From Candidatus Liptonbacteria bacterium (GTDB taxonomy: Bacteria > Patescibacteriota > Minisyncoccia > UBA6257 > 2-01-FULL-56-20): DNA of 64,000 nt. Positions within the stretch are counted from its first letter, which is position 1, and the number at the start of each line of letters is the position of its first letter. The notes under the pieces were generated by a model. That model was given only the letters and a program-made list of their open reading frames with translations. It was not told the origin of the DNA and searched no databases. The translations under genes were made by a program, and so were the position numbers. Below, piece after piece: positions 1 through 38,217 of this stretch. Where the stretch lies: NCBI GenBank assembly GCA_023244895.1, contig JAHFLL010000001.1, positions 178,476 through 242,475 on the forward strand, read 5' to 3'.

Positions 1-1773
1 GGGAACGTGGGTATTTCCACCACCACCCCCTCCGGCAAGCTACATGTTGCCGGTGGCGGTGCGTATATGAGCAACCTGGATGGTTCATATCGTGTCCCGG
101 TCGCGAATACCGAGCTAGTGCCGAAGCAGTATGTAGACAGTGTTTTCCAGCCCATAGCCACGGATGCGCTCTGGACATTAACAGGGTCTGTTATTTATGC
201 ATCTTCCACATCCCGCCAGGTGGCAATAGGCAGTGCGAGCGCAAGTGCTTGGGCCAAGCTTGACGTCAGAGGCGGACAGATAGTTGCAGAACAGTCTGGC
301 GGGACTGGTTATGATAGTTTTGATGGTACGGGCGGCTCGGATGGTTCCAGGGGTTTGCGCGCATCCTGGACCTCTGGTTATGGCGCGAGTCTAGAGGCAT
401 GGGATGGAGGTGCTCCTAAATGGGGTATTTTCCGCTGGAACGCCACCACCTCTTATCCTGTTATGCAGGGACTTTACACTAGCAACAATGTTTACTTTAG
501 CGGGAATATGGGCATAGCTACAACCTCTGCCTCCAATACTCTAGATGTTCAGGGCACGGGCGGATTCACTGGTCAGCTCTACATCCCAGTCACTCCTTTA
601 TCTAGTTCCTCTGCGGCTAGTAAGCAGTATGTAGATACTACTTTTGCCCCTATCGGCACGGTTGGCTTACCGGCTGGCACTACTGGTCAAACTTTGCGCC
701 ACAATGGTTCTACTTGGGTAGCCAATAGCGTGATTTATAACAACGGTTCAACCATAGGGATAGGGACAACAAGTGGTTCTTCTATGTTGACGGTAGCGGG
801 TAGCTTGTCCGCAGTGGCGACCACTACTAGTGTATCTATCTATATGAGCGGAGCAGTAGGCGGTGTGGCGACCATCAGTCAGAATATGAATGGTAGCCCC
901 AACATAATGGGCATCACTACTTCTAATAATGGAGAGTTAATATTGAATGGTTCTGGCTCAACCGGCGTGGTCGCGATAGGCACCATGGCTACCACCTCCG
1001 CAAAACTTACTATTGGCGGCTCCCCAACTATTGCGATTGATGCGGGTGGAGGCAGAATACAAAACTTAGCGACTACTCCAGTTAACGGGAACGACGCCGC
1101 GACCAGGACCTATGTAGATGGCGTGGCTAGCAAGTGGAACTTGTCCAGCACGAACATATATAACAATAATGCGGGAAATATTGGCATAGGTAGCTCAACA
1201 GCGCCGTCGTATAAGTTGCATGTGTTCGGTAGTTTGGGTGCGTCTGGCTCCATAGTCGCCAACGGGGGAATAACTTTAGGCGCAGGTACGAATATCACCG
1301 GTGTCAATAAGATAACCGTGACTACCATTGACCCGGTCTATCGCATTGGAGGAGTAAACTACGCGACCTACGCCGGTTCTTTCGCGGGTGGAGTAAAGGA
1401 AGAGTACTCCGGCAAGGCTAAGCTCAAAGCTCAAATGTCAAAGAACAAAAAAATTGACATTGGAAATTCGGATTTGGACATTACCGGAACCGGTTATGAA
1501 TACGTCATTGACTTCAGTTCGGTTCCGGTCGGCTCCGACTTGTGGGTCTGGTACAAAGCAATTGACTTCTCTAGAGATAATATAGAAGCGGTAGCCACTC
1601 CCTACGGCCAGTCCGCAAGCATCTACTACGTGATAGAGGGCAAGAAGATAATATTCCGGGGAGACAAAGGTGCAGAATTCAGTTTCCGCTTAACCGGTAA
1701 GCGTCATGATTGGCGAGAGTGGCCCACCATGTCTAAGGACCAGGAAGAAAAGCCGAGCTTCATATTGGACTAA
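1..1773 (+). CDS. Gly-rich phage-tail-fibre-like surface protein, 5'-truncated by the window edge (frame is open to base 1)
   Basis: Repeated NIGIG(T/S)xxP...KL(D/H)V motifs and AxxK/RxYVD motifs typical of tail-fibre beta-helix repeats. C-terminal 120 aa (MSKNKKIDIGNSDLDITGT...VPVGSDLW) is paralogous to the C-terminus of the 8862-10169 protein. Confidence 0.7.
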   Translation, partial: GNVGISTTTPSGKLHVAGGGAYMSNLDGSYRVPVANTELVPKQYVDSVFQPIATDALWTLTGSVIYASSTSRQVAIGSASASAWAKLDVRGGQIVAEQSGGTGYDSFDGTGGSDGSRGLRASWTSGYGASLEAWDGGAPKWGIFRWNATTSYPVMQGLYTSNNVYFSGNMGIATTSASNTLDVQGTGGFTGQLYIPVTPLSSSSAASKQYVDTTFAPIGTVGLPAGTTGQTLRHNGSTWVANSVIYNNGSTIGIGTTSGSSMLTVAGSLSAVATTTSVSIYMSGAVGGVATISQNMNGSPNIMGITTSNNGELILNGSGSTGVVAIGTMATTSAKLTIGGSPTIAIDAGGGRIQNLATTPVNGNDAATRTYVDGVASKWNLSSTNIYNNNAGNIGIGSSTAPSYKLHVFGSLGASGSIVANGGITLGAGTNITGVNKITVTTIDPVYRIGGVNYATYAGSFAGGVKEEYSGKAKLKAQMSKNKKIDIGNSDLDITGTGYEYVIDFSSVPVGSDLWVWYKAIDFSRDNIEAVATPYGQSASIYYVIEGKKIIFRGDKGAEFSFRLTGKRHDWREWPTMSKDQEEKPSFILD

Positions 1774-2223
1774 GCGACCCGAATGACCCCAATTGCATCC
1801 GAATGACACTAATGGCGGAGAAGAGAATCGTAGAAAAGGAGTTGTCGTACGTGCTGACGGGTTTGATGTTTAGGGTACATAAAGAACTGGGCAGATATGC
1901 GAGAGAAAGGCAGTATGGGGATGCGCTGGAGAGAGAGTTTAGAACAGCTAAAATGAATTACGAGAGGGAAAAGGCAATTGAAGTCGCGGAGCGCAAGTCT
2001 AATCTTATAGATTTTGTCATAGAAGAAAGGGTCGCAATAGAATTAAAAGCTAAACCGTTTATAACCAAGGAAGATTATTATCAGATTCAGCGTTACCTGC
2101 AGTCAGCTAATCTGGAATTGGGTATGCTGGTCAACTTCTCTCAGGAATATTTAAAGCCTAAAAGAGTGTTGAATGCTAATCTCTATTCGGGTAATTCGGA
2201 TGAATTCGTGGATTAGGGTCGCT
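1773..2223. mobile_element. Small cassette bounded by 8-bp perfect terminal inverted repeats (AGCGACCC / GGGTCGCT) with subterminal CCGAATG/CATTCGG repeats, carrying a GxxExxY ORF
   Basis: TIRs at 1773-1780 and 2216-2223. Direct repeats of ccgaatgac at 1778-1806. Inverted attcggat copies at 2193-2208. ORF-less related copies at 3888-4019, 37660-37751 and 18425-18450. Confidence 0.55.
1803..2216 (+). CDS. GxxExxY family protein (PD-(D/E)XK nuclease superfamily 3-like)
   Basis: 137 aa. N-terminal LSYVLTGLMFRVHKELG...YGDALEREF and C-terminal IELKAK...QIQRYLQSANLELGMLVNF match the GxxExxY/PDDEXK_3 architecture. Both ORF ends lie within the element repeats. Confidence 0.6.
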   Translation: MTLMAEKRIVEKELSYVLTGLMFRVHKELGRYARERQYGDALEREFRTAKMNYEREKAIEVAERKSNLIDFVIEERVAIELKAKPFITKEDYYQIQRYLQSANLELGMLVNFSQEYLKPKRVLNANLYSGNSDEFVD

Positions 2224-2892: not shown

Positions 2893-2985
2893 TTTATCCT
2901 GATTGGATAAATTACTTGCAAGCACCAAATCCCAAGTATCAAGCACCAAGCAATGGAGGGACCGCTTGTGATCAAAAACAAAAAA

Positions 2986-3004
2986 CGGGCGCAGCCCGTT
3001 TTTT
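2986..3004 (+). terminator. Rho-independent terminator (cgggc-gca-gcccg stem-loop plus T6)
   Basis: GC stem followed by tttttt, 90 bp after the cupredoxin stop. Confidence 0.6.
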
Positions 3005-3162
3005 GGTATATTGTTTTCTGTTTTGGATTCTAGATTCGTTCGGAATTTGCCTGCCCGCCGGGTTGGCAGGCGGGGTGCTTGTAATTTGCTATACCCATCT
3101 TTAGGTTCCTAATTTGTTTGGAATTTGGTATTTGATGCTTGTAATTTGCTATACTTATAGCC

Positions 3163-3879
3163 ATGGAAGGCATGGGTCGGGCGATTGTGAGCGGTCTCTT
3201 TGTGGTTCTTGTTATGATGTCCATCGTGGTTTTGGGTTTAAGCTTTTTATCGCCCTTAGAAAATAAAAAAACAACACCTAAATATAGCGCCACTAAAGTG
3301 GGCACCTCAACCCCGGTCCAAGAGCCGGAGAAAATTTCTTTCAATCCCTTAAGCATCTTCGGTTTCGGCAACAACAAGCCGGAAGAAACTCCGCCGCCAG
3401 CTGTTGCTCCCGTAGAGACTCCGCTTCAGCAGAACATCCCTCCTTCTCCTCCCTCGCTCTCCCTAACCGCCATAGGGACGTCCCCGGTTGTGGATGGCAA
3501 GGTGGTGCAGTTGAGCTACGAGCCAGTGTCTCTTGCGGTTGATCCAGGCTCAAACCAAGCTCCTTTTTCTTCGCGCCCCATAACGCCGGGGGAGTATCTT
3601 CCCAATAGCCGCATTCTCAAATTCAGCGACCAGGGAGTAGATCCGATTAACTTTAGCGTGCAGACTGGATCCGTAATCAATCTGGTTATTCGTTCTGAGG
3701 GCGAGTCGTCTCACGTCTTTCGCTTTAAAGATAAGGGTCTTAAGGCCGTCGCGGTGGGAGTTGGTCCGGAGGAGTCCAGGGAGATAAGTTTTAACGCGCC
3801 TGGTTCTGGATCATATGAGTTCTTTTGCGACATACCCGGGCACAAGACTAGGGAGATAGGGACGATGATTGTCAATTGA
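3163..3879 (+). CDS. Membrane-anchored type-1 copper cupredoxin, tandem paralog
   Basis: Same C-terminal domain as the first copy (SSHVFRFKDKGLKAVAVGVGP...YEFFCDIPGHKTREIGTM). N-terminal TM and Pro-rich linker. Confidence 0.75.
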   Translation: MEGMGRAIVSGLFVVLVMMSIVVLGLSFLSPLENKKTTPKYSATKVGTSTPVQEPEKISFNPLSIFGFGNNKPEETPPPAVAPVETPLQQNIPPSPPSLSLTAIGTSPVVDGKVVQLSYEPVSLAVDPGSNQAPFSSRPITPGEYLPNSRILKFSDQGVDPINFSVQTGSVINLVIRSEGESSHVFRFKDKGLKAVAVGVGPEESREISFNAPGSGSYEFFCDIPGHKTREIGTMIVN

Positions 3880-3887
3880 TTAATAAT

Positions 3888-4019
3888 AGCGACACGAATG
3901 CTACGAATTGCACACGAATTATCCGAAAATGATTTGGGGCATTCGGATGCCATTCGGATCGTTCGGGTTGCTTCCTTTTATTCGGGTCATTCGGATGTAA
4001 TTAGGGTCGTTCGGGTTGC
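3888..4019. repeat. ORF-less MITE-like derivative(s) of the 1773-2223 element
   Basis: agcgacacgaatg at the left end and cattcggatgtaattagggtcgtt at the right end. Multiple attcggat/cgttcgggttgc copies. Confidence 0.5.
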
Positions 4020-4041
4020 TATATATTAGAATTTATTCCAA

Positions 4042-11582: not shown

Positions 11583-12056
11583 ATGCGCAAAAAGATGATA
11601 CTTATACTTCTGATCGTAGTCGTTGTGATGGGAATCCTAATCGCGAGCTATCTATCTATGAGCACGGAGTCGTCCGGCCTCAAAACCTCCCGCTTTTTAG
11701 TCGGCGAAAAGAAGATAGAGGTTGAGATAGCGGACAGTACATCTACGCGTGCCACGGGCTTGTCCTATCGTAATTCTCTGGATGAGGATAGGGGAATGTA
11801 TTTTATATTCAACTCTTTGAGCTCCCATTCTTTTTGGATGAAGGACATGAACTTCCCGATAGATATAATATGGATAAAGGACGATAAGATTGTGGGTGTA
11901 GCGGAGAATGTTCCTAATCAGCCCGGCGCGCAATTGTGGCAACTTAAAAGCTATTCTCCGCCCGAACCAGTCAATCGGGTGTTGGAAGTAAACGCGGGTT
12001 GGGCCGCAAAAAACGGCATAAAAATAGGGGATAGGGCCGAACTGACAGGGAGCTAA
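11583..12056 (+). CDS. DUF192 domain protein
   Basis: MKDMNFPIDIIWIKDDKIVGVAENVP core typical of DUF192/COG1430. Confidence 0.6.
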   Translation: MRKKMILILLIVVVVMGILIASYLSMSTESSGLKTSRFLVGEKKIEVEIADSTSTRATGLSYRNSLDEDRGMYFIFNSLSSHSFWMKDMNFPIDIIWIKDDKIVGVAENVPNQPGAQLWQLKSYSPPEPVNRVLEVNAGWAAKNGIKIGDRAELTGS

Positions 12057-17571: not shown

Positions 17572-18428
17572 AAGATTTACACGAAAAACAATTGAAGTTT
17601 TTGGAAGAAACAGCTAATTTTGTCCGACAAGATGTAATTAAGATGTTGCTTGCGGCCGGCTCGGGTCACTCCGCCGGCTCGCTCGGCATGGCGGACGTCA
17701 TGACCGCGCTTTACTTCCATATTTTAAATCACAAACCCAAGCAGCCTAATTTTAAAGATCGCGACCGGGTCGTCTTGTCCAACGGGCACATTTGCCCGGT
17801 GCTGTACGCGGTTTTGGCCCGCGCGGGATATTTCCCCCTGGAAGAGCTCAAGACCCTGCGCCAGCTCGGGTCTCGTCTACAAGGACACCCCCATCGTCTT
17901 GCTTTGCCTGGCATAGAAAATAGTTCCGGTCCGCTTGGTTCTGGACTTTCCCAGGCGATAGGCATGGCGCTTACTGCCAGAATGGATGGGAAAAAACATC
18001 GGATATATTGCCTAATGTCGGACGGAGAACACCAGGAGGGTAATACTTGGGAAGCTATTATGTCCGCGAGCAAGTACCGGCTTTCCAATATTACGGCCAT
18101 TATAGATCGCAACCATATTCAGATAGACGGCTTTACCGAAAACATAATGCCGCTTGAACCCCTTAAGGAGAAGTATGAGTCTTTCGGCTGGCAGGTGCTG
18201 GAAGTAAGCGGCCACAGCTTTGAGTCTATAATTTCCGCCGTCGCGGAAGCGCAAGCTATCCACGAGAGGCCAACCGCAATTATAGCTCACACCATTCCCG
18301 GCATGGGAGTCAGTTTTATGGAAAATGACTATATCTGGCACAGCAAGGCGCCCAAATCGGAAGAAGCCAGGTTGGCGCTTAAAGAGCTGAGAAGTCTGGG
18401 CGGGAAGATAAGGTCGGAACACGAGTAA
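17568..18428 (+). CDS. tkt: Transketolase, N-terminal (TPP pyrophosphate-binding) subunit
   Basis: GSGHSAGSLGMADVMTALYF...SDGEHQEGNTWEA. Split-type transketolase. Confidence 0.85.
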   Translation: MKDLHEKQLKFLEETANFVRQDVIKMLLAAGSGHSAGSLGMADVMTALYFHILNHKPKQPNFKDRDRVVLSNGHICPVLYAVLARAGYFPLEELKTLRQLGSRLQGHPHRLALPGIENSSGPLGSGLSQAIGMALTARMDGKKHRIYCLMSDGEHQEGNTWEAIMSASKYRLSNITAIIDRNHIQIDGFTENIMPLEPLKEKYESFGWQVLEVSGHSFESIISAVAEAQAIHERPTAIIAHTIPGMGVSFMENDYIWHSKAPKSEEARLALKELRSLGGKIRSEHE

Positions 18429-18461
18429 TTTGATCCGAATGCCACGAATTTAAACCATATT

Positions 18462-35109: not shown

Positions 35110-38100
35110 ATGAAAAAATACGACTTTAAAAAAATTGAAGCCAAGTGGCAGAAGGTCTGGCAGGAGAAGGGTGTTTACGAACCTGCCTTAAAGTCCTCCA
35201 AGGGCAAAAATCCTCCCTTCTATAACTTGATGATGTTTCCGTATCCTTCCGCGGAGGGTCTGCATGTAGGCAATATGTATGCCTTCACGGGTACGGATAT
35301 CTACGGACGTTATAAGCGTATGCAGGGCAACGATGTTTTTGAGCCGATTGGCCTAGACGGCTTCGGAATTCACTCCGAGAACTATGCCATGAAAATCGGG
35401 GCTCACCCCATGAAGCAGGCTAAAGTATCGGAGAAAAGGTTCTATAAGCAGCTGCAGGCAATAGGAAACGGGTTTGCCTGGAACGAGCGCCTGGAAACAT
35501 ATGATCCGGAATATTACCGCTGGACGCAGTGGATTTTCGCGCAGATGTTTAAGGCGGGGTTGGCTTATCGCAAGAAGCAGGCTGTGAACTGGTGTCCATC
35601 CTGCATGACGGTTTTGTCCGACGAGCAGGCCGAGGGCGGAAAGTGCGAACGTTGCAACTCGGTAGTTATTAAAAAAGATTTAGAGCAGTGGTTTTTTAAA
35701 ATTACGGAATACGCGGAAAGACTTTTGCAGAATCTGGACAAGTTGGATTGGTCCGAAAAGGTAAAAATAGCGCAGAAGAATTGGATAGGGAAGTCGGAGG
35801 GGGCGGAGCTGGAATTTGGAATTAAGAATTATGAATTAGGAATCAAAAATGCCCTGGTTATTCATGGTGTGAGTGGGCATAAGAGGGAAAATTGGTTTCC
35901 GTGGCTGAAAGATATTTTAGAGAAAGACGGTTGGCATGTTAGCGTGCCCACTCTACCGACCCCCGATCATCCCAAAATAGAAGAATGGAATATGGTCCTA
36001 AAGAAAGAGTCTACATCCGCCTCTGTTTTAATCGGCCACAGTTTGGGAGCTCCAGCCGCTTTAAACCTTATTCAGACCAGCAATAAAAAGATAGACAGAT
36101 TAATCTTGGTAGCTCCGGTCAATCCTAAACAGGATTGGAGATATTTAAAGTCGGTCTATCCTCAAGCTGATTGGGATGCGGTCAAAAACTTCGCGGATAT
36201 TAAGTTCGATTGGGAAAAAATTACAAAATTAGTCAGACAGGTTGTGGTCTATTATTCCGACAATGACCCATATGTTTCTGCTAAATCGGTGGAGTTCTAT
36301 AAGCAGCATCTACCGAACGCTATTTTTAGGTTCTTGCCCGGCAAGGGCCATTTTAATGAGCGTTATGGGATAACCGAATTTCCGGAAATCCTGGAAGCGG
36401 TTAACCCCAAGGTAAAAGTTTTTACAACCAGGCCGGATACGCTTTTTGGCGCGACTTATGTCGTCTTGGCGCCGGAACACCCATTGATACAGAATCTAGA
36501 AGGTGGAATTAAGAATGTAGTAGAAGTTAAGAACTATATTAAGAAATCTAAGGCTAAGACTGATGAGGAGAGAATAGAGAACAAAGAGAAAACTGGCGTA
36601 GAACTAAGGGGCGTTAAAGCTATAAATCCTGCGACCCAAGGAGAGATATCCATTTGGGTAGCAGATTATGTTTTGTCTTCCTACGGCACAGGTGCAATTA
36701 TGGCCGTCCCGGCACACGATGAGCGCGACCACGAGTTTGCTAGCAAGTACAAACTTCCAATCGTAGAGGTGGTTGATTCTCAAGATAACTCCGACGGCAC
36801 CCTTTGGCTTGGAGGAGGACGCTTAATAAATTCTGGAAGATTTAACGGAGTGGATTCAGAAGAGGCCAAGTGGAAAATAACGGCAGAGGTTGGTGGCAAG
36901 AAAAAGATACAATATCGTCTGCGAGACTGGCTGATTTCGCGTCAGCGCTATTGGGGTCCGCCCATCCCGATGATTCATTGCGAAGGTTGCGAAAAAGCCG
37001 GGAAGGGGGAGCGCAAAGAAATGCCGGGCTGGTACGCGGTGCCCGACAAAGACCTGCCGGTGAAGCTGCCGTTCGTAAAAGATTTTCGTCCGCAAGGCTC
37101 TGGCAGTTCGCCACTCGCGGCATCTAAGGCATTCCGCGATGTGCGCTGTCCGGTCTGTAAAAATAAAGCCAAGCGGGAGACAGACGTTTCGGACACTTTT
37201 TTGGACTCGGCCTGGTACTATTTGCGCTATCCATCCTTAAGCTCCAAGACTGCCAAGGCTAAAGCCTGGGACCCGGAGATAACCAAGAGCTGGTGTCCGG
37301 TTGATATGTATATCGGCGGGGCGGAGCACTCCGTGTTGCACCTGCTATACGTACGCTTTTTGGCCCTAGCCTTACACGACCTGAAACTAGTCAATTTTGG
37401 AGACTCTAAGGCCCCTAAAGGCGAGCCATTCCCCAAATTCCGCGCCCACGGCCTTCTTATTAAGGAGGGAGCTAAAATGTCCAAGTCTAAGGGGAATGTG
37501 GTCAATCCGGACGAATATATCAAGAATTTTGGAGCGGACACCCTGCGCATGTATTTGATGTTTTTAGCTCCCTTTGAACAGGGTGGAGACTTCCGGGACG
37601 CGGGCGTTATGGGTATCAGCCGCTTTTTGGAGAGGGTGTATAAATTTAGTCAAAGAATTAGCGACCCGAATACTACAAATTACATCCGAATTATCCGAAA
37701 AGAGAGAAAGAATTCGGAGCATTCGGATGTATTCGTGGATTTGGATCGCATACTGCATCAGACCATTAAGAAGGTTTCGGATGATCTGGAGAGTTTGAGC
37801 TACAACACGGCCATAAGCGCCATGATGATATTGCTAAATAAGTTCGAGGAAAAGGCAGAGTCAGTCTCGCTACCAAATTGGATAGACTTCTTGAAACTGC
37901 TTGCTCCATTTGCTCCACATCTTTCCGAGGAACTGTTCCAGTCAGCCAAAAAACATAATTCTCAATTCATAATTCGTAATTCAATCCATCTATCCGATTG
38001 GCCCCAATATAACCCAGAGCTTGCCCGGGAATCCAATTTTACTTTGATAGTTCAAATTAACGGCAAGGTGCGTGCGAGCATTGAGGCTCCGATTGGGATA

Positions 38101-38217
38101 TCAGAGAAGAACGCTCTGGCGCTTGCCCTCCGAAATGAGCGCGTGAAAGAACTTGTGTCCGGCGATCCGAAGAGGGTGATATTTATTCCTAATCGTCTGA
38201 TTAACCTGGTAATCTAA
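35110..38217 (+). CDS. leuS: Leucine--tRNA ligase carrying two insertions (alpha/beta-hydrolase domain; in-frame palindromic repeat)
   Basis: HVGNMYAFTGTDIY (HIGH-type), TTRPDTLFGATYVVLAPEHP and AVPAHDERD editing-domain motifs, KMSKSKGN. About 1035 aa versus about 800-860 typical. Confidence 0.9.
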   Translation: MKKYDFKKIEAKWQKVWQEKGVYEPALKSSKGKNPPFYNLMMFPYPSAEGLHVGNMYAFTGTDIYGRYKRMQGNDVFEPIGLDGFGIHSENYAMKIGAHPMKQAKVSEKRFYKQLQAIGNGFAWNERLETYDPEYYRWTQWIFAQMFKAGLAYRKKQAVNWCPSCMTVLSDEQAEGGKCERCNSVVIKKDLEQWFFKITEYAERLLQNLDKLDWSEKVKIAQKNWIGKSEGAELEFGIKNYELGIKNALVIHGVSGHKRENWFPWLKDILEKDGWHVSVPTLPTPDHPKIEEWNMVLKKESTSASVLIGHSLGAPAALNLIQTSNKKIDRLILVAPVNPKQDWRYLKSVYPQADWDAVKNFADIKFDWEKITKLVRQVVVYYSDNDPYVSAKSVEFYKQHLPNAIFRFLPGKGHFNERYGITEFPEILEAVNPKVKVFTTRPDTLFGATYVVLAPEHPLIQNLEGGIKNVVEVKNYIKKSKAKTDEERIENKEKTGVELRGVKAINPATQGEISIWVADYVLSSYGTGAIMAVPAHDERDHEFASKYKLPIVEVVDSQDNSDGTLWLGGGRLINSGRFNGVDSEEAKWKITAEVGGKKKIQYRLRDWLISRQRYWGPPIPMIHCEGCEKAGKGERKEMPGWYAVPDKDLPVKLPFVKDFRPQGSGSSPLAASKAFRDVRCPVCKNKAKRETDVSDTFLDSAWYYLRYPSLSSKTAKAKAWDPEITKSWCPVDMYIGGAEHSVLHLLYVRFLALALHDLKLVNFGDSKAPKGEPFPKFRAHGLLIKEGAKMSKSKGNVVNPDEYIKNFGADTLRMYLMFLAPFEQGGDFRDAGVMGISRFLERVYKFSQRISDPNTTNYIRIIRKERKNSEHSDVFVDLDRILHQTIKKVSDDLESLSYNTAISAMMILLNKFEEKAESVSLPNWIDFLKLLAPFAPHLSEELFQSAKKHNSQFIIRNSIHLSDWPQYNPELARESNFTLIVQINGKVRASIEAPIGISEKNALALALRNERVKELVSGDPKRVIFIPNRLINLVI
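35818..36414 (+). other. Inserted YdeN/RBBP9-type serine hydrolase domain within leuS (residues about 237-435)
   Basis: LVIHGVSGHKRENWFPW...LIGHSLGAPAAL (GxSxG nucleophile elbow)...YYSDNDPYV...GKGHFN (Asp/His). Inserted between the conserved ...SEGAELEF and VKVFTTRPDT LeuS blocks, which are normally only a few residues apart. Confidence 0.65.
37660..37751. repeat. MITE-like palindromic element (ORF-less derivative of the 1773-2223 element) inserted in-frame in leuS
   Basis: agcgacccgaat...catccgaat...attcggagcattcggatgtattcgtggatttggatcgc matches both ends of the 1773-2223 element. Translated as SDPNTTNYIRIIRKERKNSEHSDVFVD in the LeuS frame. Confidence 0.6.

What the first reader, a model, noticed from the sequence alone, without database searches (positions are those of the whole stretch)
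1773..2223. 451-bp inverted-repeat-bounded cassette carrying a GxxExxY (PD-(D/E)XK) gene
The cassette has perfect 8-bp terminal inverted repeats (AGCGACCC...GGGTCGCT) and subterminal CCGAATG/CATTCGG repeats. Both termini of the GxxExxY ORF are encoded by the repeats. Shorter ORF-less copies of the same ends occur at 3888-4019, 18425-18450 and inside leuS (37660-37751). This looks like an autonomous/non-autonomous (MITE-like) pair in which the PD-(D/E)XK protein is the candidate mobilising nuclease.
Basis: seen in the sequence. Interest (0 to 1): 0.6.

Follow-up and report, generated by a model that had tools for sequence, protein, structure and literature searches.

The report
Nuclease gene cassette with hairpin arms
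A 451-bp unit in a candidate-phyla-radiation (CPR) bacterium carries a small nuclease gene between two mirror-image arms of repeated CGAAT boxes, and it belongs to a large, apparently undescribed family of selfish-looking cassettes that also sit in frame inside essential genes and leave gene-less hairpin copies.

Summary
Window 1773-2223 is a GxxExxY (PF13366/TIGR04256) nuclease gene between two ~40-nt inverted arms. Each arm ends in (A)GCGAC/T and holds four CNAAT boxes spaced 9-11 nt apart. ORF-less arm pairs lie at 3888-4020 and, in frame, inside leuS (37660-37751). A half arm lies at 18426-18450.

The architecture is general. An arm model built from this window alone finds arms in 66 of 82 sequences searched, 80 of them homologue loci from many CPR lineages, and none in shuffled DNA. 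About 29 of 80 cassettes read in frame into host genes (RecG, glycosyltransferases, Dxr, pilin leaders). ORF-less copies resemble the cassette arms of their own genome.

At the orthologous slot, distant relatives carry an ORF-less hairpin or a four-helix-bundle cassette instead. RecG orthologues 84-86% identical exist with and without a nested cassette (net 450 nt).

Against active transposition, I found no target-site duplication, no known transposase, and no identical copies at different sites.

Best reading: a selfish, at least formerly mobile, nuclease cassette with MITE/RPE-like derivatives. That the nuclease acts on its own arms is inferred, not shown. I rate it a new variant of a known kind.

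The parts
1773..2223 (+). Complete GxxExxY cassette (451 bp): left arm, ORF, right arm. It lies between the stop codon of the upstream large surface-type protein gene (TAA 1771-1773) and the cupredoxin gene (ATG 2314).
1773..1814 (+). Left arm: terminus AGCGAC followed by four boxes (CCGAAT, CCCAAT, CCGAAT, ACTAAT). It contains the start codon.
   Evidence: arm HMM E 6.4e-11; profile
1803..2216 (+). GxxExxY protein gene, 137 aa (alternative start at 1812). It is a RecB/Cas4-like PD-(D/E)XK nuclease with E35, D70, E80-x-K82 and Q94xxxY98.
2183..2223 (+). Right arm: boxes ATTCGG, ATTCGG, ATTCGT, ATTAGG, then terminus GTCGCT. It contains the stop codon TAG (2214-2216), created by a C-to-A variant in the last box.
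   Evidence: arm HMM E 1.2e-8 on the minus strand
3888..3972 (+). ORF-less left plus right arm pair (hairpin), intergenic between the second cupredoxin gene (stop at 3879) and the next gene (ATG 4042).
   Evidence: arm HMM E 2.5e-9 and 4.6e-9; hairpin z -3.6
3979..4020 (+). Extra (duplicated) right arm directly after the hairpin.
   Evidence: arm HMM E 2.6e-10
18426..18450 (+). Half left arm (two boxes, CCGAAT and ACGAAT) in a 33-nt intergenic spacer. Probably a remnant.
   Evidence: arm HMM E 0.08 only
37660..37751 (+). ORF-less arm pair inside leuS (35110-38217). It is read through in frame as ISDPNTTNYIRIIRKERKNSEHSDVFVDLD, in a variable loop of the anticodon-binding region.
   Evidence: (z -6.2)

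Best explanation
The 451-bp unit belongs to a large family of selfish single-gene cassettes of CPR/Patescibacteria. These cassettes have moved on evolutionary time scales.

Anatomy (shown). A ~125-aa RecB/Cas4-like GxxExxY nuclease gene sits between two ~40-nt inverted arms. Each arm ends in GCGAT/GCGAC and holds four CNAAT boxes, mostly CGAAT, spaced 9-11 nt apart, roughly one box per helical turn. The first and last codons of the gene lie inside the arms.

ORF-less pairs (shown as a pattern). Arm pairs of 80-110 bp without the gene are deletion derivatives or non-autonomous partners of the same lineage.

Persistence in genes (shown as a pattern). Both forms occur between genes. Inside genes they are found only as in-frame, stop-free insertions, apparently translated as disordered linkers, with or without a nested nuclease domain. 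The leuS copy in this window is one example.

Mechanism (inferred, not shown). The nuclease binds the phased boxes of its own arms, as duplex or as a hairpin/panhandle. It cuts at or near the GCGAT termini, or cuts unoccupied sites. Host repair or recombination then copies or relocates the unit without a target-site duplication.
For: The cassette and its protein.
- The arms and gene are as described in the window.
- An arm HMM built only from the seven window arms finds arms in 66 of 82 sequences searched. These are the window, two duplicates of its own locus, and 79 of the 80 loci holding homologues that are only 45-61% identical, from many CPR lineages. It finds none in shuffled DNA.
- Across 160 arms the CNAAT cores and GCGA are about 100% conserved, although the proteins are only ~53% identical.
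- The boxes fall in all three phases relative to the ORF (right arm 27/99/39, left arm 49/63/37). The conservation is therefore at the DNA level, not the peptide level (protein tails).
- Each cassette's left arm pairs best with its own right arm: duplex energy -40 kcal/mol against -27.6 for other cassettes and -11.7 for shuffled arms.
- D70, E/D80 and K82 are invariant in all 81 copies, including the nested ones. The fold is nearest Cas4 and lambda-exonuclease-type nucleases.

Link between cassettes and ORF-less copies.
- ORF-less arms match the cassette arms of the same locus (80% against 50% median identity) and share odd termini with them.
- A second GxxExxY subfamily nested in RecG has different arms (ACGCGGAAC / GTTCCGC, also periodic). 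One of those proteins also carries an extra gene-less insertion whose peptide tails resemble that subfamily's arm-encoded tails. This hints that arm motif and protein subfamily go together.

Evidence for movement.
- Cassettes sit in many contexts: RecG at two sites, GT1, GT2, the Dxr C-terminus, pilin leaders, and nusG-rplK spacers.
- Closely related cassettes sit at different sites (L010 and L004 75% identical; L059 and L060 79%).
- The window's own slot holds an ORF-less hairpin in L087 and PF05635 cassettes in L083 and L084.
- Of the 120 closest RecG relatives, 38 carry the nested domain and 82 do not. These include pairs 84-86% identical outside the insert, and one filled/empty DNA pair differs by exactly 450 nt net.
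Against: - No consistent target-site duplication. There is only an A-rich flank: A is 49-57% at positions -3 to -1 against 29% background.
- No recognised transposase, integrase or Hint domain.
- Identical GxxExxY proteins are always in the same context (5, 24 and 14 contigs read), so there is no sign of recent jumps.
- Two copies in one MAG are only ~51% identical.
- Cassettes of the same architecture carry a four-helix-bundle gene that is not a nuclease. The arms could therefore be handled by a host factor.
- None were found in viral contigs.
- The closest filled/empty pair belongs to a different GxxExxY subfamily from the window's. For the window's slot, the relatives are only 50-60% identical.
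- Bias: the loci were retrieved with patterns that contain E35, Y38, Q94 and Y98, and the best-scoring 80 were kept, so decayed copies were not sampled. Invariance of arm positions is partly imposed by HMM detection.
Confidence: 0.5

Rival explanations
1. Homing into palindromes. The ORF-less arm pairs are not derivatives of the cassette but its targets. The nuclease cuts the centre of an unoccupied hairpin element, and repair from an occupied copy installs the gene between the arms, as with a free-standing homing endonuclease. This is a variant of the main model with the direction reversed.
For: - The gene replaces exactly the loop of the hairpin, and arms are retained on both sides.
- At the same slot the window has the occupied form and L087 the ORF-less form.
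- There is no target-site duplication.
- Insertions lie at conserved sites of essential genes.
Against: - The ORF-less elements would still need their own means of spreading.
- The arms in L087 are of the ACGAAT type and the window's are of the CCGAAT type, so this is not a simple occupied/empty pair.
- The filled/empty RecG pair has no hairpin in the empty allele.
Confidence: 0.15
2. Passive cargo. The GxxExxY protein has a cellular or defence role unrelated to mobility. The arms are recombination or uptake-type sequences handled by host enzymes, and the gene is moved or lost by host recombination or natural transformation.
For: - Four-helix-bundle (PF05635) genes use the same cassette architecture without encoding a nuclease.
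- Identical copies are stable in context.
- The upstream neighbour is co-oriented in 43 of 47 cases against a 77% background, which suggests dependence on host transcription.
Against: - Arm motifs differ between the two GxxExxY subfamilies examined and between GxxExxY and PF05635 cassettes. That argues for a cassette-encoded specificity factor rather than one host factor.
- There is no significant match to known defence systems.
- Catalytic residues are kept even when the domain is nested in unrelated hosts such as glycosyltransferases, Dxr and pilin leaders.
Confidence: 0.2
3. RNA-level element. As in ORF-bearing intervening sequences of 23S rRNA, the two arms pair in the transcript into a long stem. 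RNase III cuts that stem, releasing or destabilising the cassette RNA. On this view the arms are conserved as an RNA structure.
For: - Own-arm complementarity is maintained: -40 against -27.6 kcal/mol.
- The size (~450 nt), the single small ORF and the terminal stem match the Coxiella and Leptospira IVS described in PMC4990558.
- PF05635, the IVS protein family, occupies the same slot in relatives.
Against: - A structure-only constraint would allow compensatory drift. Instead the CNAAT boxes and the GCGAT terminus are conserved in sequence across phylum-level lineages.
- 29 of 80 cassettes and 6 of 16 hairpins are kept in frame and stop-free inside ORFs. That would be unnecessary if they were removed from the RNA, and cutting there would destroy essential mRNAs.
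- There is no rRNA gene in the window.
Confidence: 0.1
4. Not an element at all: an ordinary small gene whose flanks happen to be low-complexity repeats, with chance similarity to other short repeats in the window.
For: - The 7-mer CCGAATG is not enriched in the window.
- The 8-bp terminal repeat alone could arise by chance.
Against: - The arm HMM gives 115-171 hits in real DNA and 0 in shuffled DNA.
- The same architecture is present at most of 80 independent loci.
- Presence and absence vary among orthologues.
Confidence: 0.02

Closest known systems
Rickettsia palindromic elements (RPEs; Ogata et al. 2000, from my own knowledge; reviewed in PMC10969869)
   Same: Short palindromic repeats inserted in frame into unrelated housekeeping genes and translated as extra peptide segments without destroying the host protein. 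No known transposase.
   Different: - RPEs have no ORF-bearing partner. Here the same arms bound a complete nuclease gene, and the whole ~150-codon cassette can be nested in frame.
- Different host phylum (CPR rather than Alphaproteobacteria).
- The arms are built from phased CNAAT boxes.
- Sequence relatedness to RPEs was not tested.
ORF-bearing intervening sequences (IVS) of 23S rRNA, e.g. the Coxiella burnetii 428-nt IVS with the S23p ORF (PMC4990558)
   Same: A selfish unit of ~430-760 nt with a single small ORF enclosed by terminal inverted repeats. It is scattered in distribution and long suspected to be mobile by an unknown mechanism. PF05635 (S23p) cassettes occupy the same slot as the window's cassette in relatives.
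   Different: - Not in rRNA.
- The ORF is a PD-(D/E)XK nuclease, not a four-helix bundle.
- The arms are sequence-conserved periodic boxes.
- Many copies are translated in frame within proteins, which is incompatible with RNase III excision.
REPIN-RAYT systems (Nunvar 2010; Bertels and Rainey 2011; from my own knowledge)
   Same: A nuclease-type gene flanked by inverted copies of a short repeat. Hairpin doublets of the same repeat are dispersed in the genome and match the flanks of the resident gene.
   Different: - RAYTs are HUH Y1 transposase homologues, usually single-copy and extragenic.
- Here the gene is a RecB/Cas4-like PD-(D/E)XK nuclease. Several divergent copies occur per genome (L005/L026 and L029/L044, ~51% identical), and copies lie inside ORFs.
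Bacterial MITEs with terminal inverted repeats, such as Correia elements (PMC10969869)
   Same: Short units bounded by terminal inverted repeats, able to form hairpins, found both between genes and within genes.
   Different: - Correia and most MITEs make a target-site duplication (TA for Correia) and derive from DDE insertion sequences.
- No duplication and no DDE partner are seen here.
Free-standing homing endonuclease genes and inteins (from my own knowledge; PD-(D/E)XK homing enzymes such as I-Ssp6803I exist)
   Same: A nuclease gene inserted at conserved sites of essential genes such as RecG helicase motifs. Presence and absence vary among close orthologues. No target-site duplication.
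   Different: - No intron and no Hint/intein domain.
- The insert stays in the mature protein.
- It has conserved inverted arms, which homing endonuclease genes lack.
IS200/IS605-type single-strand transposition (from my own knowledge)
   Same: Depends on DNA hairpins at the element ends and makes no target-site duplication.
   Different: - It uses an HUH TnpA, and each end has its own hairpin.
- Here each arm is a direct array of boxes, and a hairpin forms only by pairing the left arm with the right.

Membership tests
GxxExxY protein (NCBIfam TIGR04256 / Pfam PF13366 PDDEXK_3) | Score above the curated cut-off of both models | tested here: met
   PF13366 79.5 bits (cut-off 22). TIGR04256 73.8 bits (cut-off 35).
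GxxExxY protein (NCBIfam TIGR04256 / Pfam PF13366 PDDEXK_3) | Conserved motif residues: ExxY, D, (D/E)xK | tested here: met
   E35, Y38, D70, E80, K82, Q94 and Y98 are present. D70, E/D80 and K82 are invariant in 81 copies.
RecB/Cas4-like branch of PD-(D/E)XK nucleases | Fold similarity and the QxxxY motif after the (D/E)xK motif | tested here: inconclusive
   The model has pLDDT 85.6. The best Foldseek hits are Cas4 SSO0001 (E 6e-4), Cas4 Pcal_0546, lambda-exonuclease-like proteins and MGME1, but TM is only 0.45-0.51. Q94xxxY98 is present.
RecB/Cas4-like branch of PD-(D/E)XK nucleases | Nuclease activity | not testable with these tools
   Needs biochemistry.
Autonomous transposon plus MITE pair | Terminal inverted repeats shared by ORF-bearing and ORF-less copies of the same genome | tested here: met
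Autonomous transposon plus MITE pair | Target-site duplication flanking the copies | tested here: not met
   No consistent direct repeat in 52 arm pairs. There is only an A-rich outer flank, with TA at 18% against 6% background.
Autonomous transposon plus MITE pair | Encoded protein is a recognised transposase (DDE, HUH, serine or tyrosine recombinase) | tested here: not met
   Only PF13366 (PDDEXK_3) scores above its Pfam cut-off. The one other match, HSDR_N_2, is below cut-off and is not a transposase domain.
Autonomous transposon plus MITE pair | Several dispersed copies per genome | tested here: inconclusive
   There are four loci in the 64-kb window. The rest of the ~840-kb genome could not be read.
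Autonomous transposon plus MITE pair | Insertion polymorphism at orthologous sites | tested here: met
   Met among distant relatives: different slot occupants in L083, L084 and L087, and RecG with and without the insert at 84-86% identity. Not seen at strain level.
RPE-like in-frame palindromic insertions | Palindromic repeat inserted in frame in a functional gene | tested here: met
   The leuS ORF is intact with about 26-30 extra residues in a variable loop. Six of 16 hairpins are read through.
RPE-like in-frame palindromic insertions | Sequence homology to the RPE families | not tested
   No RPE sequences were available. Rfam gave no hit.
23S rRNA intervening sequence with ORF | Located in a 23S rRNA helix and excised by RNase III | tested here: not met
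   There is no rRNA gene in the window. The copies lie between or inside protein genes. Excision cannot be tested here.
23S rRNA intervening sequence with ORF | Single small ORF enclosed by terminal inverted repeats, total ~430-760 nt | tested here: met
   451 bp with ~40-nt arms. Compared with PMC4990558.
REPIN-RAYT | HUH Y1 (IS200-like) nuclease gene | tested here: not met
   The protein is PD-(D/E)XK.
Intein / homing endonuclease gene | Hint splicing domain or a self-splicing intron around the nuclease | tested here: not met
   Pfam scans of nested RecG, glycosyltransferase and pilin hosts show only host domains plus PF13366. There are no intron families in Rfam.

The most novel reading that the evidence does not exclude
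GxxExxY cassettes are a distinct, undescribed class of nuclease-driven mobile elements. A minimal RecB/Cas4-like nuclease recognises helically phased boxes in its own inverted arms, with a different box 'code' for each protein subfamily. It propagates without a target-site duplication. It can settle in frame inside essential genes, where the arms serve as disordered linkers and the nuclease becomes a nested domain. The ORF-less hairpins are its non-autonomous partners. The four-helix-bundle cassettes of 23S rRNA intervening sequences would then be a sister class using the same strategy.
Probability: 0.3. Interest if true: 0.85.

Novelty: new variant of a known kind. Interest (0 to 1): 0.66.

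Why it matters
- GxxExxY (PF13366) is a large protein family listed with function 'Unknown' in the 2012 PD-(D/E)XK survey. I found no paper in the searched library on its genomic behaviour.
- If the cassette model holds, it gives the family a testable role and a defined DNA substrate: phased CNAAT boxes ending in GCGAT.
- It would explain many odd insertions and fusions in CPR proteins, such as RecG orthologues that NCBI names 'GxxExxY protein', long pilin leaders, and extra loops in LeuS.
- It would extend the Rickettsia case of palindromes evolving inside proteins to whole-domain insertions.
- It would link to the 30-year-old question of how ORF-bearing rRNA intervening sequences move.
- On the practical side, annotators and phylogenomic pipelines should mask these inserts in marker genes.

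Tried and rejected
- Target-site duplication. I inspected 52 arm pairs and position-specific flank composition. No direct repeat emerged, only an A-rich flank.
- Left-end versus right-end identity of hairpin arms relative to the cassette arms. No consistent pattern.
- Strain-level polymorphism and recent jumps. Exact-protein look-ups for the window protein, P0062 and P0006 always returned the same context.
- Close LeuS relatives to define an empty site. The nearest are only 55-59% identical and the loop varies in length, so exact boundaries could not be set.
- Viral carriers. None in IMG/VR.
- Known RNA families, promoters and terminators around the cassette. Nothing relevant.
- Defence-system models. 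Only weak, sub-significant Csm6 matches. The PHROG hit has unknown function.
- Literature searches on GxxExxY, PDDEXK_3, PF13366, PF05635, and CPR with MITE or palindromic element. Nothing describes this.
- The whole source genome could not be scanned. It was not among the 80 best loci kept from genome contigs, and scans of that collection are capped at one.
Full report
**1. The observation**

Window 1773-2223 reads AGCGACCCGAATGACCCCAATTGCATCCGAATGACACTAATG, then the ORF, then TATTCGGGTAATTCGGATGAATTCGTGGATTAGGGTCGCT.

- The 8-mer AGCGACCC and its complement sit exactly at the two ends.
- The inverted repeat extends imperfectly over about 40 nt.
- ORF 1803-2216 (137 aa) is a GxxExxY protein: PF13366 at E 3e-22 and TIGR04256 at E 1e-20, with the domain spanning aa 13-122.
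- The start codon lies in a left-arm box and the stop codon in the last right-arm box.
- AlphaFold gives a confident core (pLDDT 85.6) and disordered tails at 1-8 and 131-137, which are the arm-encoded residues.

One detail of the finding is wrong. CATTCGG is not in the cassette's right arm, which has ATTCGG twice and ATTCGT once. The 7-mer CCGAATG is not enriched in the window by itself.

- 3888-3972 is a left plus right arm, followed by a second right arm at 3979-4020.
- 37660-37751 lies inside leuS.
- 18426-18450 is a weak half arm.

An HMM of the arms scores the seven full arms at E 6e-11 to 1.5e-7. The two full ORF-less copies fold as long hairpins (z -6.2 and -3.6).

The leuS copy is in frame. 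The 1035-aa LeuS aligns with T. thermophilus LeuRS on both sides of the insert. CPR LeuS homologues have 9-33 residues in that loop where the window has 35.

**2. The organism and copies of this locus**

The exact protein is found on five assemblies, all with the same neighbours. Its cluster record gives a longest contig of 840 kb, from NCBI. Homologues are almost all from Patescibacteria (CPR).

**3. The architecture is general**

I fetched 80 loci encoding homologues 45-61% identical, from many CPR lineages. Nearly all show the same flanks:
- upstream, (A)GCGAT followed by three or four nCGAAT boxes;
- downstream, three or four ATTCGn boxes followed by ATCGC.

The arm model confirms this.
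- The HMM built only from the window's seven arms finds arms in 66 of 82 sequences.
- After iteration it finds 161 arms in 1.1 Mb.
- It finds none in block-shuffled DNA.

The arm profile is GCGAT-nCnAAT-nnn-CGAAT(T)-nn-CAT-nCGAAT-Gnn-nCGAAT. The CNAA(T) cores and GCGA are about 100% conserved, and the boxes are spaced 9-11 nt apart. The proteins, by contrast, average 53% identity.

The boxes fall in all three phases relative to the ORF. This explains why homologues end in different peptides (NSDHSD, IRVIRIIR, FVDSDKFVDS) that all encode the same DNA motif. The constraint is therefore on the DNA or RNA, not on the peptide.

A cassette's left arm pairs best with its own right arm: -40 kcal/mol against -27.6 for other cassettes and -11.7 for shuffled arms.

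**4. ORF-less partners**

Among 52 left/right arm pairs, 36 enclose the gene (437-734 bp, all but one 437-531) and 16 are hairpins of 79-108 bp.

ORF-less arms resemble the cassette arms of the same locus: median 80% identity against 50% to other loci. The local cassette ranks in the top three of 63 in 28 of 49 cases. They also share unusual termini, such as ATAATCC in L008 and CCGACCC in L035 and L058.

**5.

In about 29 of 80 loci the GxxExxY frame runs on into a host ORF of more than 60 aa on one or both sides. Pfam confirms single ORFs in which the nuclease domain is nested:
- in RecG, at two different sites, between helicase motifs I/Ia and between II/III;
- in GT2 and GT1 glycosyltransferases, once as two tandem copies;
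- at the C-terminus of Dxr;
- at the N-terminus of type IV pilin-like proteins, just before the N-methylation motif. There the cassette would be removed with the leader peptide (L064 sequence).

Six of 16 hairpins are likewise read through in frame.

D70, E/D80 and K82 are invariant in both nested and free copies. E35, Y38, Q94 and Y98 are also invariant, but they formed part of the retrieval patterns.

Standalone and fused states differ by single bases. In the window the last box is ATTAGG rather than ATTCGG, which creates the TAG stop.

**6. Evidence for movement**

(a) Many host contexts.

(b) Cassette proteins cluster only modestly by site (62% against 53% identity). Close relatives sit at different sites: L010 in recG and L004 in a pilin leader are 75% identical, and L059 between nusG and rplK and L060 elsewhere are 79% identical.

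(c) The window's own slot, between the large surface protein and the cupredoxin gene, is occupied differently in relatives that are 50-60% identical:
- L087 has an ORF-less ACGAAT-type hairpin in front of the cupredoxin orthologue.
- L084 and L083 have a PF05635 four-helix-bundle gene bounded by its own periodic inverted arms.
- L085 and L086 have unrelated sequence.

(d) Of the 120 RecG proteins closest to the L025 host, 38 carry the nested domain and 82 do not.
- Of the 38, 31 have it between motifs II and III and 3 between motifs I and II.
- With the insert masked, some with/without pairs are 84-86% identical.
- For P0254 and P0327 the DNA shows a net insertion of exactly 450 nt.

That closest pair belongs to another GxxExxY subfamily, whose arms are built from ACGCGGAAC / GTTCCGC boxes. 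One of those RecG proteins also carries a separate 22-residue gene-less insertion whose peptide tails resemble that subfamily's arm-encoded tails. Arm motif and protein subfamily therefore appear to go together, though this rests on two subfamilies.

**7. Evidence against active, classical transposition**

- No target-site duplication. The only flank signal is A-richness.
- No transposase, integrase or Hint domain.
- Identical proteins always lie in the same context.
- Two copies in one MAG are only ~51% identical.
- None were found in viral contigs.
- Hairpin arms show no consistent left-end or right-end identity.
- Cassettes of the same design with a non-nuclease gene (PF05635) exist.

**8. 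What the protein is**

No solved relative was found by sequence. By fold, the nearest are Cas4 (4ic1, 4r5q), lambda-exonuclease-like proteins and MGME1, with modest TM scores. The motif set E...D...(E/D)xK...QxxxY is the RecB/Cas4 pattern; that assignment rests on my own knowledge, and the residues are. There is no significant defence-system match.

**9. Mechanism**

Shown:
- a conserved nuclease gene;
- conserved, phased, subfamily-specific arm boxes;
- self-complementary arm pairs;
- ORF-less partners that track the local cassette;
- presence/absence at orthologous sites;
- in-frame persistence inside genes.

Inferred:
- The nuclease binds the phased boxes of its own arms and cuts at the termini or at unoccupied sites.
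- Host repair then copies or relocates the unit without a duplication.
- Insertions in genes survive only if they are in frame and free of stop codons.

Rivals are homing into pre-existing hairpins, passive cargo moved by host recombination, and an IVS-like RNA stem. The last is weakened by the sequence-level conservation of the boxes and by the in-frame, stop-free copies.

**10. Comparison with known systems and novelty**

- It works like Rickettsia palindromic elements in that it makes in-frame palindromic insertions (PMC10969869).
- It looks like the ORF-bearing 23S rRNA intervening sequences, which have the same size, a single ORF and a terminal stem (PMC4990558).
- Its gene-plus-hairpin logic resembles REPIN-RAYT systems.
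- It fails defining tests for each: it has no target-site duplication or DDE transposase, no HUH nuclease, no rRNA location and no Hint domain.

I found nothing on this in the searchable literature. The 2012 PD-(D/E)XK survey lists PF13366 with function 'Unknown'.

I rate it a new variant of a known kind, with interest 0.66. The comparative evidence for a widespread, unrecognised cassette family is strong. The mechanism and the role of the nuclease remain untested.

Noticed in passing
window 35842-36400 (inside leuS, 35110-38217): LeuS carries a nested ~185-aa serine hydrolase (alpha/beta hydrolase) domain (PF06821, E 2.4e-21) inserted just before the editing domain, relative to T. thermophilus LeuRS. 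It is preceded by a short AT-rich periodic stretch encoding GIKNYELGIKN (35818-35850). I saw no inverted partner of that stretch at the other end.
   Followed up: partly
window 37950-37985 (inside leuS): A second small in-frame extra segment, KHNSQFIIRNS, is encoded by periodic AATTC repeats. Some CPR LeuS homologues (P0123, P0128) have other repeat-like inserts at the same loop, so this loop looks like an insertion hot spot.
   Followed up: partly
L001 1546-2216 (same genome, about 8 kb upstream of the window start): A PF05635 (23S rRNA intervening-sequence protein, four-helix bundle) gene is flanked by its own periodic repeats (CAAATGACAAATGACAAGTGAAATCCAAA type), with a 33-nt inverted pair. 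This is a second kind of small ORF cassette in the same genome.
   Followed up: partly
L084 912-1497; L083 617-1143: In relatives, the slot that holds the GxxExxY cassette in the window holds PF05635 genes bounded by ~35-nt inverted arms made of other periodic boxes: TAATCAT in L084 and CCCAAT in L083.
   Followed up: yes
L064 7395-8429; also L004, L005, L014, L017, L018: GxxExxY cassettes are fused in frame to the leader of type IV pilin-like genes, ending directly before the (K/R)GFTLIE processing and methylation motif. The prepilin peptidase would then release the nuclease and the mature pilin from one precursor.
   Followed up: partly
L008 9707-12292: A GT2 glycosyltransferase ORF contains two tandem GxxExxY domains plus an ORF-less hairpin (11748-11845), all in one frame.
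   Followed up: no
L093 3001-5589 compared with L095 3001-5151: RecG orthologues 86% identical with and without a nested GxxExxY domain of another subfamily. That subfamily's arms use ACGCGGAAC / GTTCCGC boxes. NCBI's pipeline names some such RecG proteins 'GxxExxY protein'.
   Followed up: yes
L097 747-2911: In a Jorgensenbacteria type IV secretion-like operon (PrgI-like, TraC-like and TraG-like genes), a PF05635 gene and a GxxExxY gene each occupy a spacer between operon genes. The context is identical in 24 contigs.
   Followed up: no
window 2979-3005: A perfect 12-bp GC-rich palindrome flanked by A and T runs (a bidirectional terminator-like site) lies between the two cupredoxin genes. It overlaps a sub-threshold L20_leader match on the opposite strand (E 0.1).
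   Followed up: no
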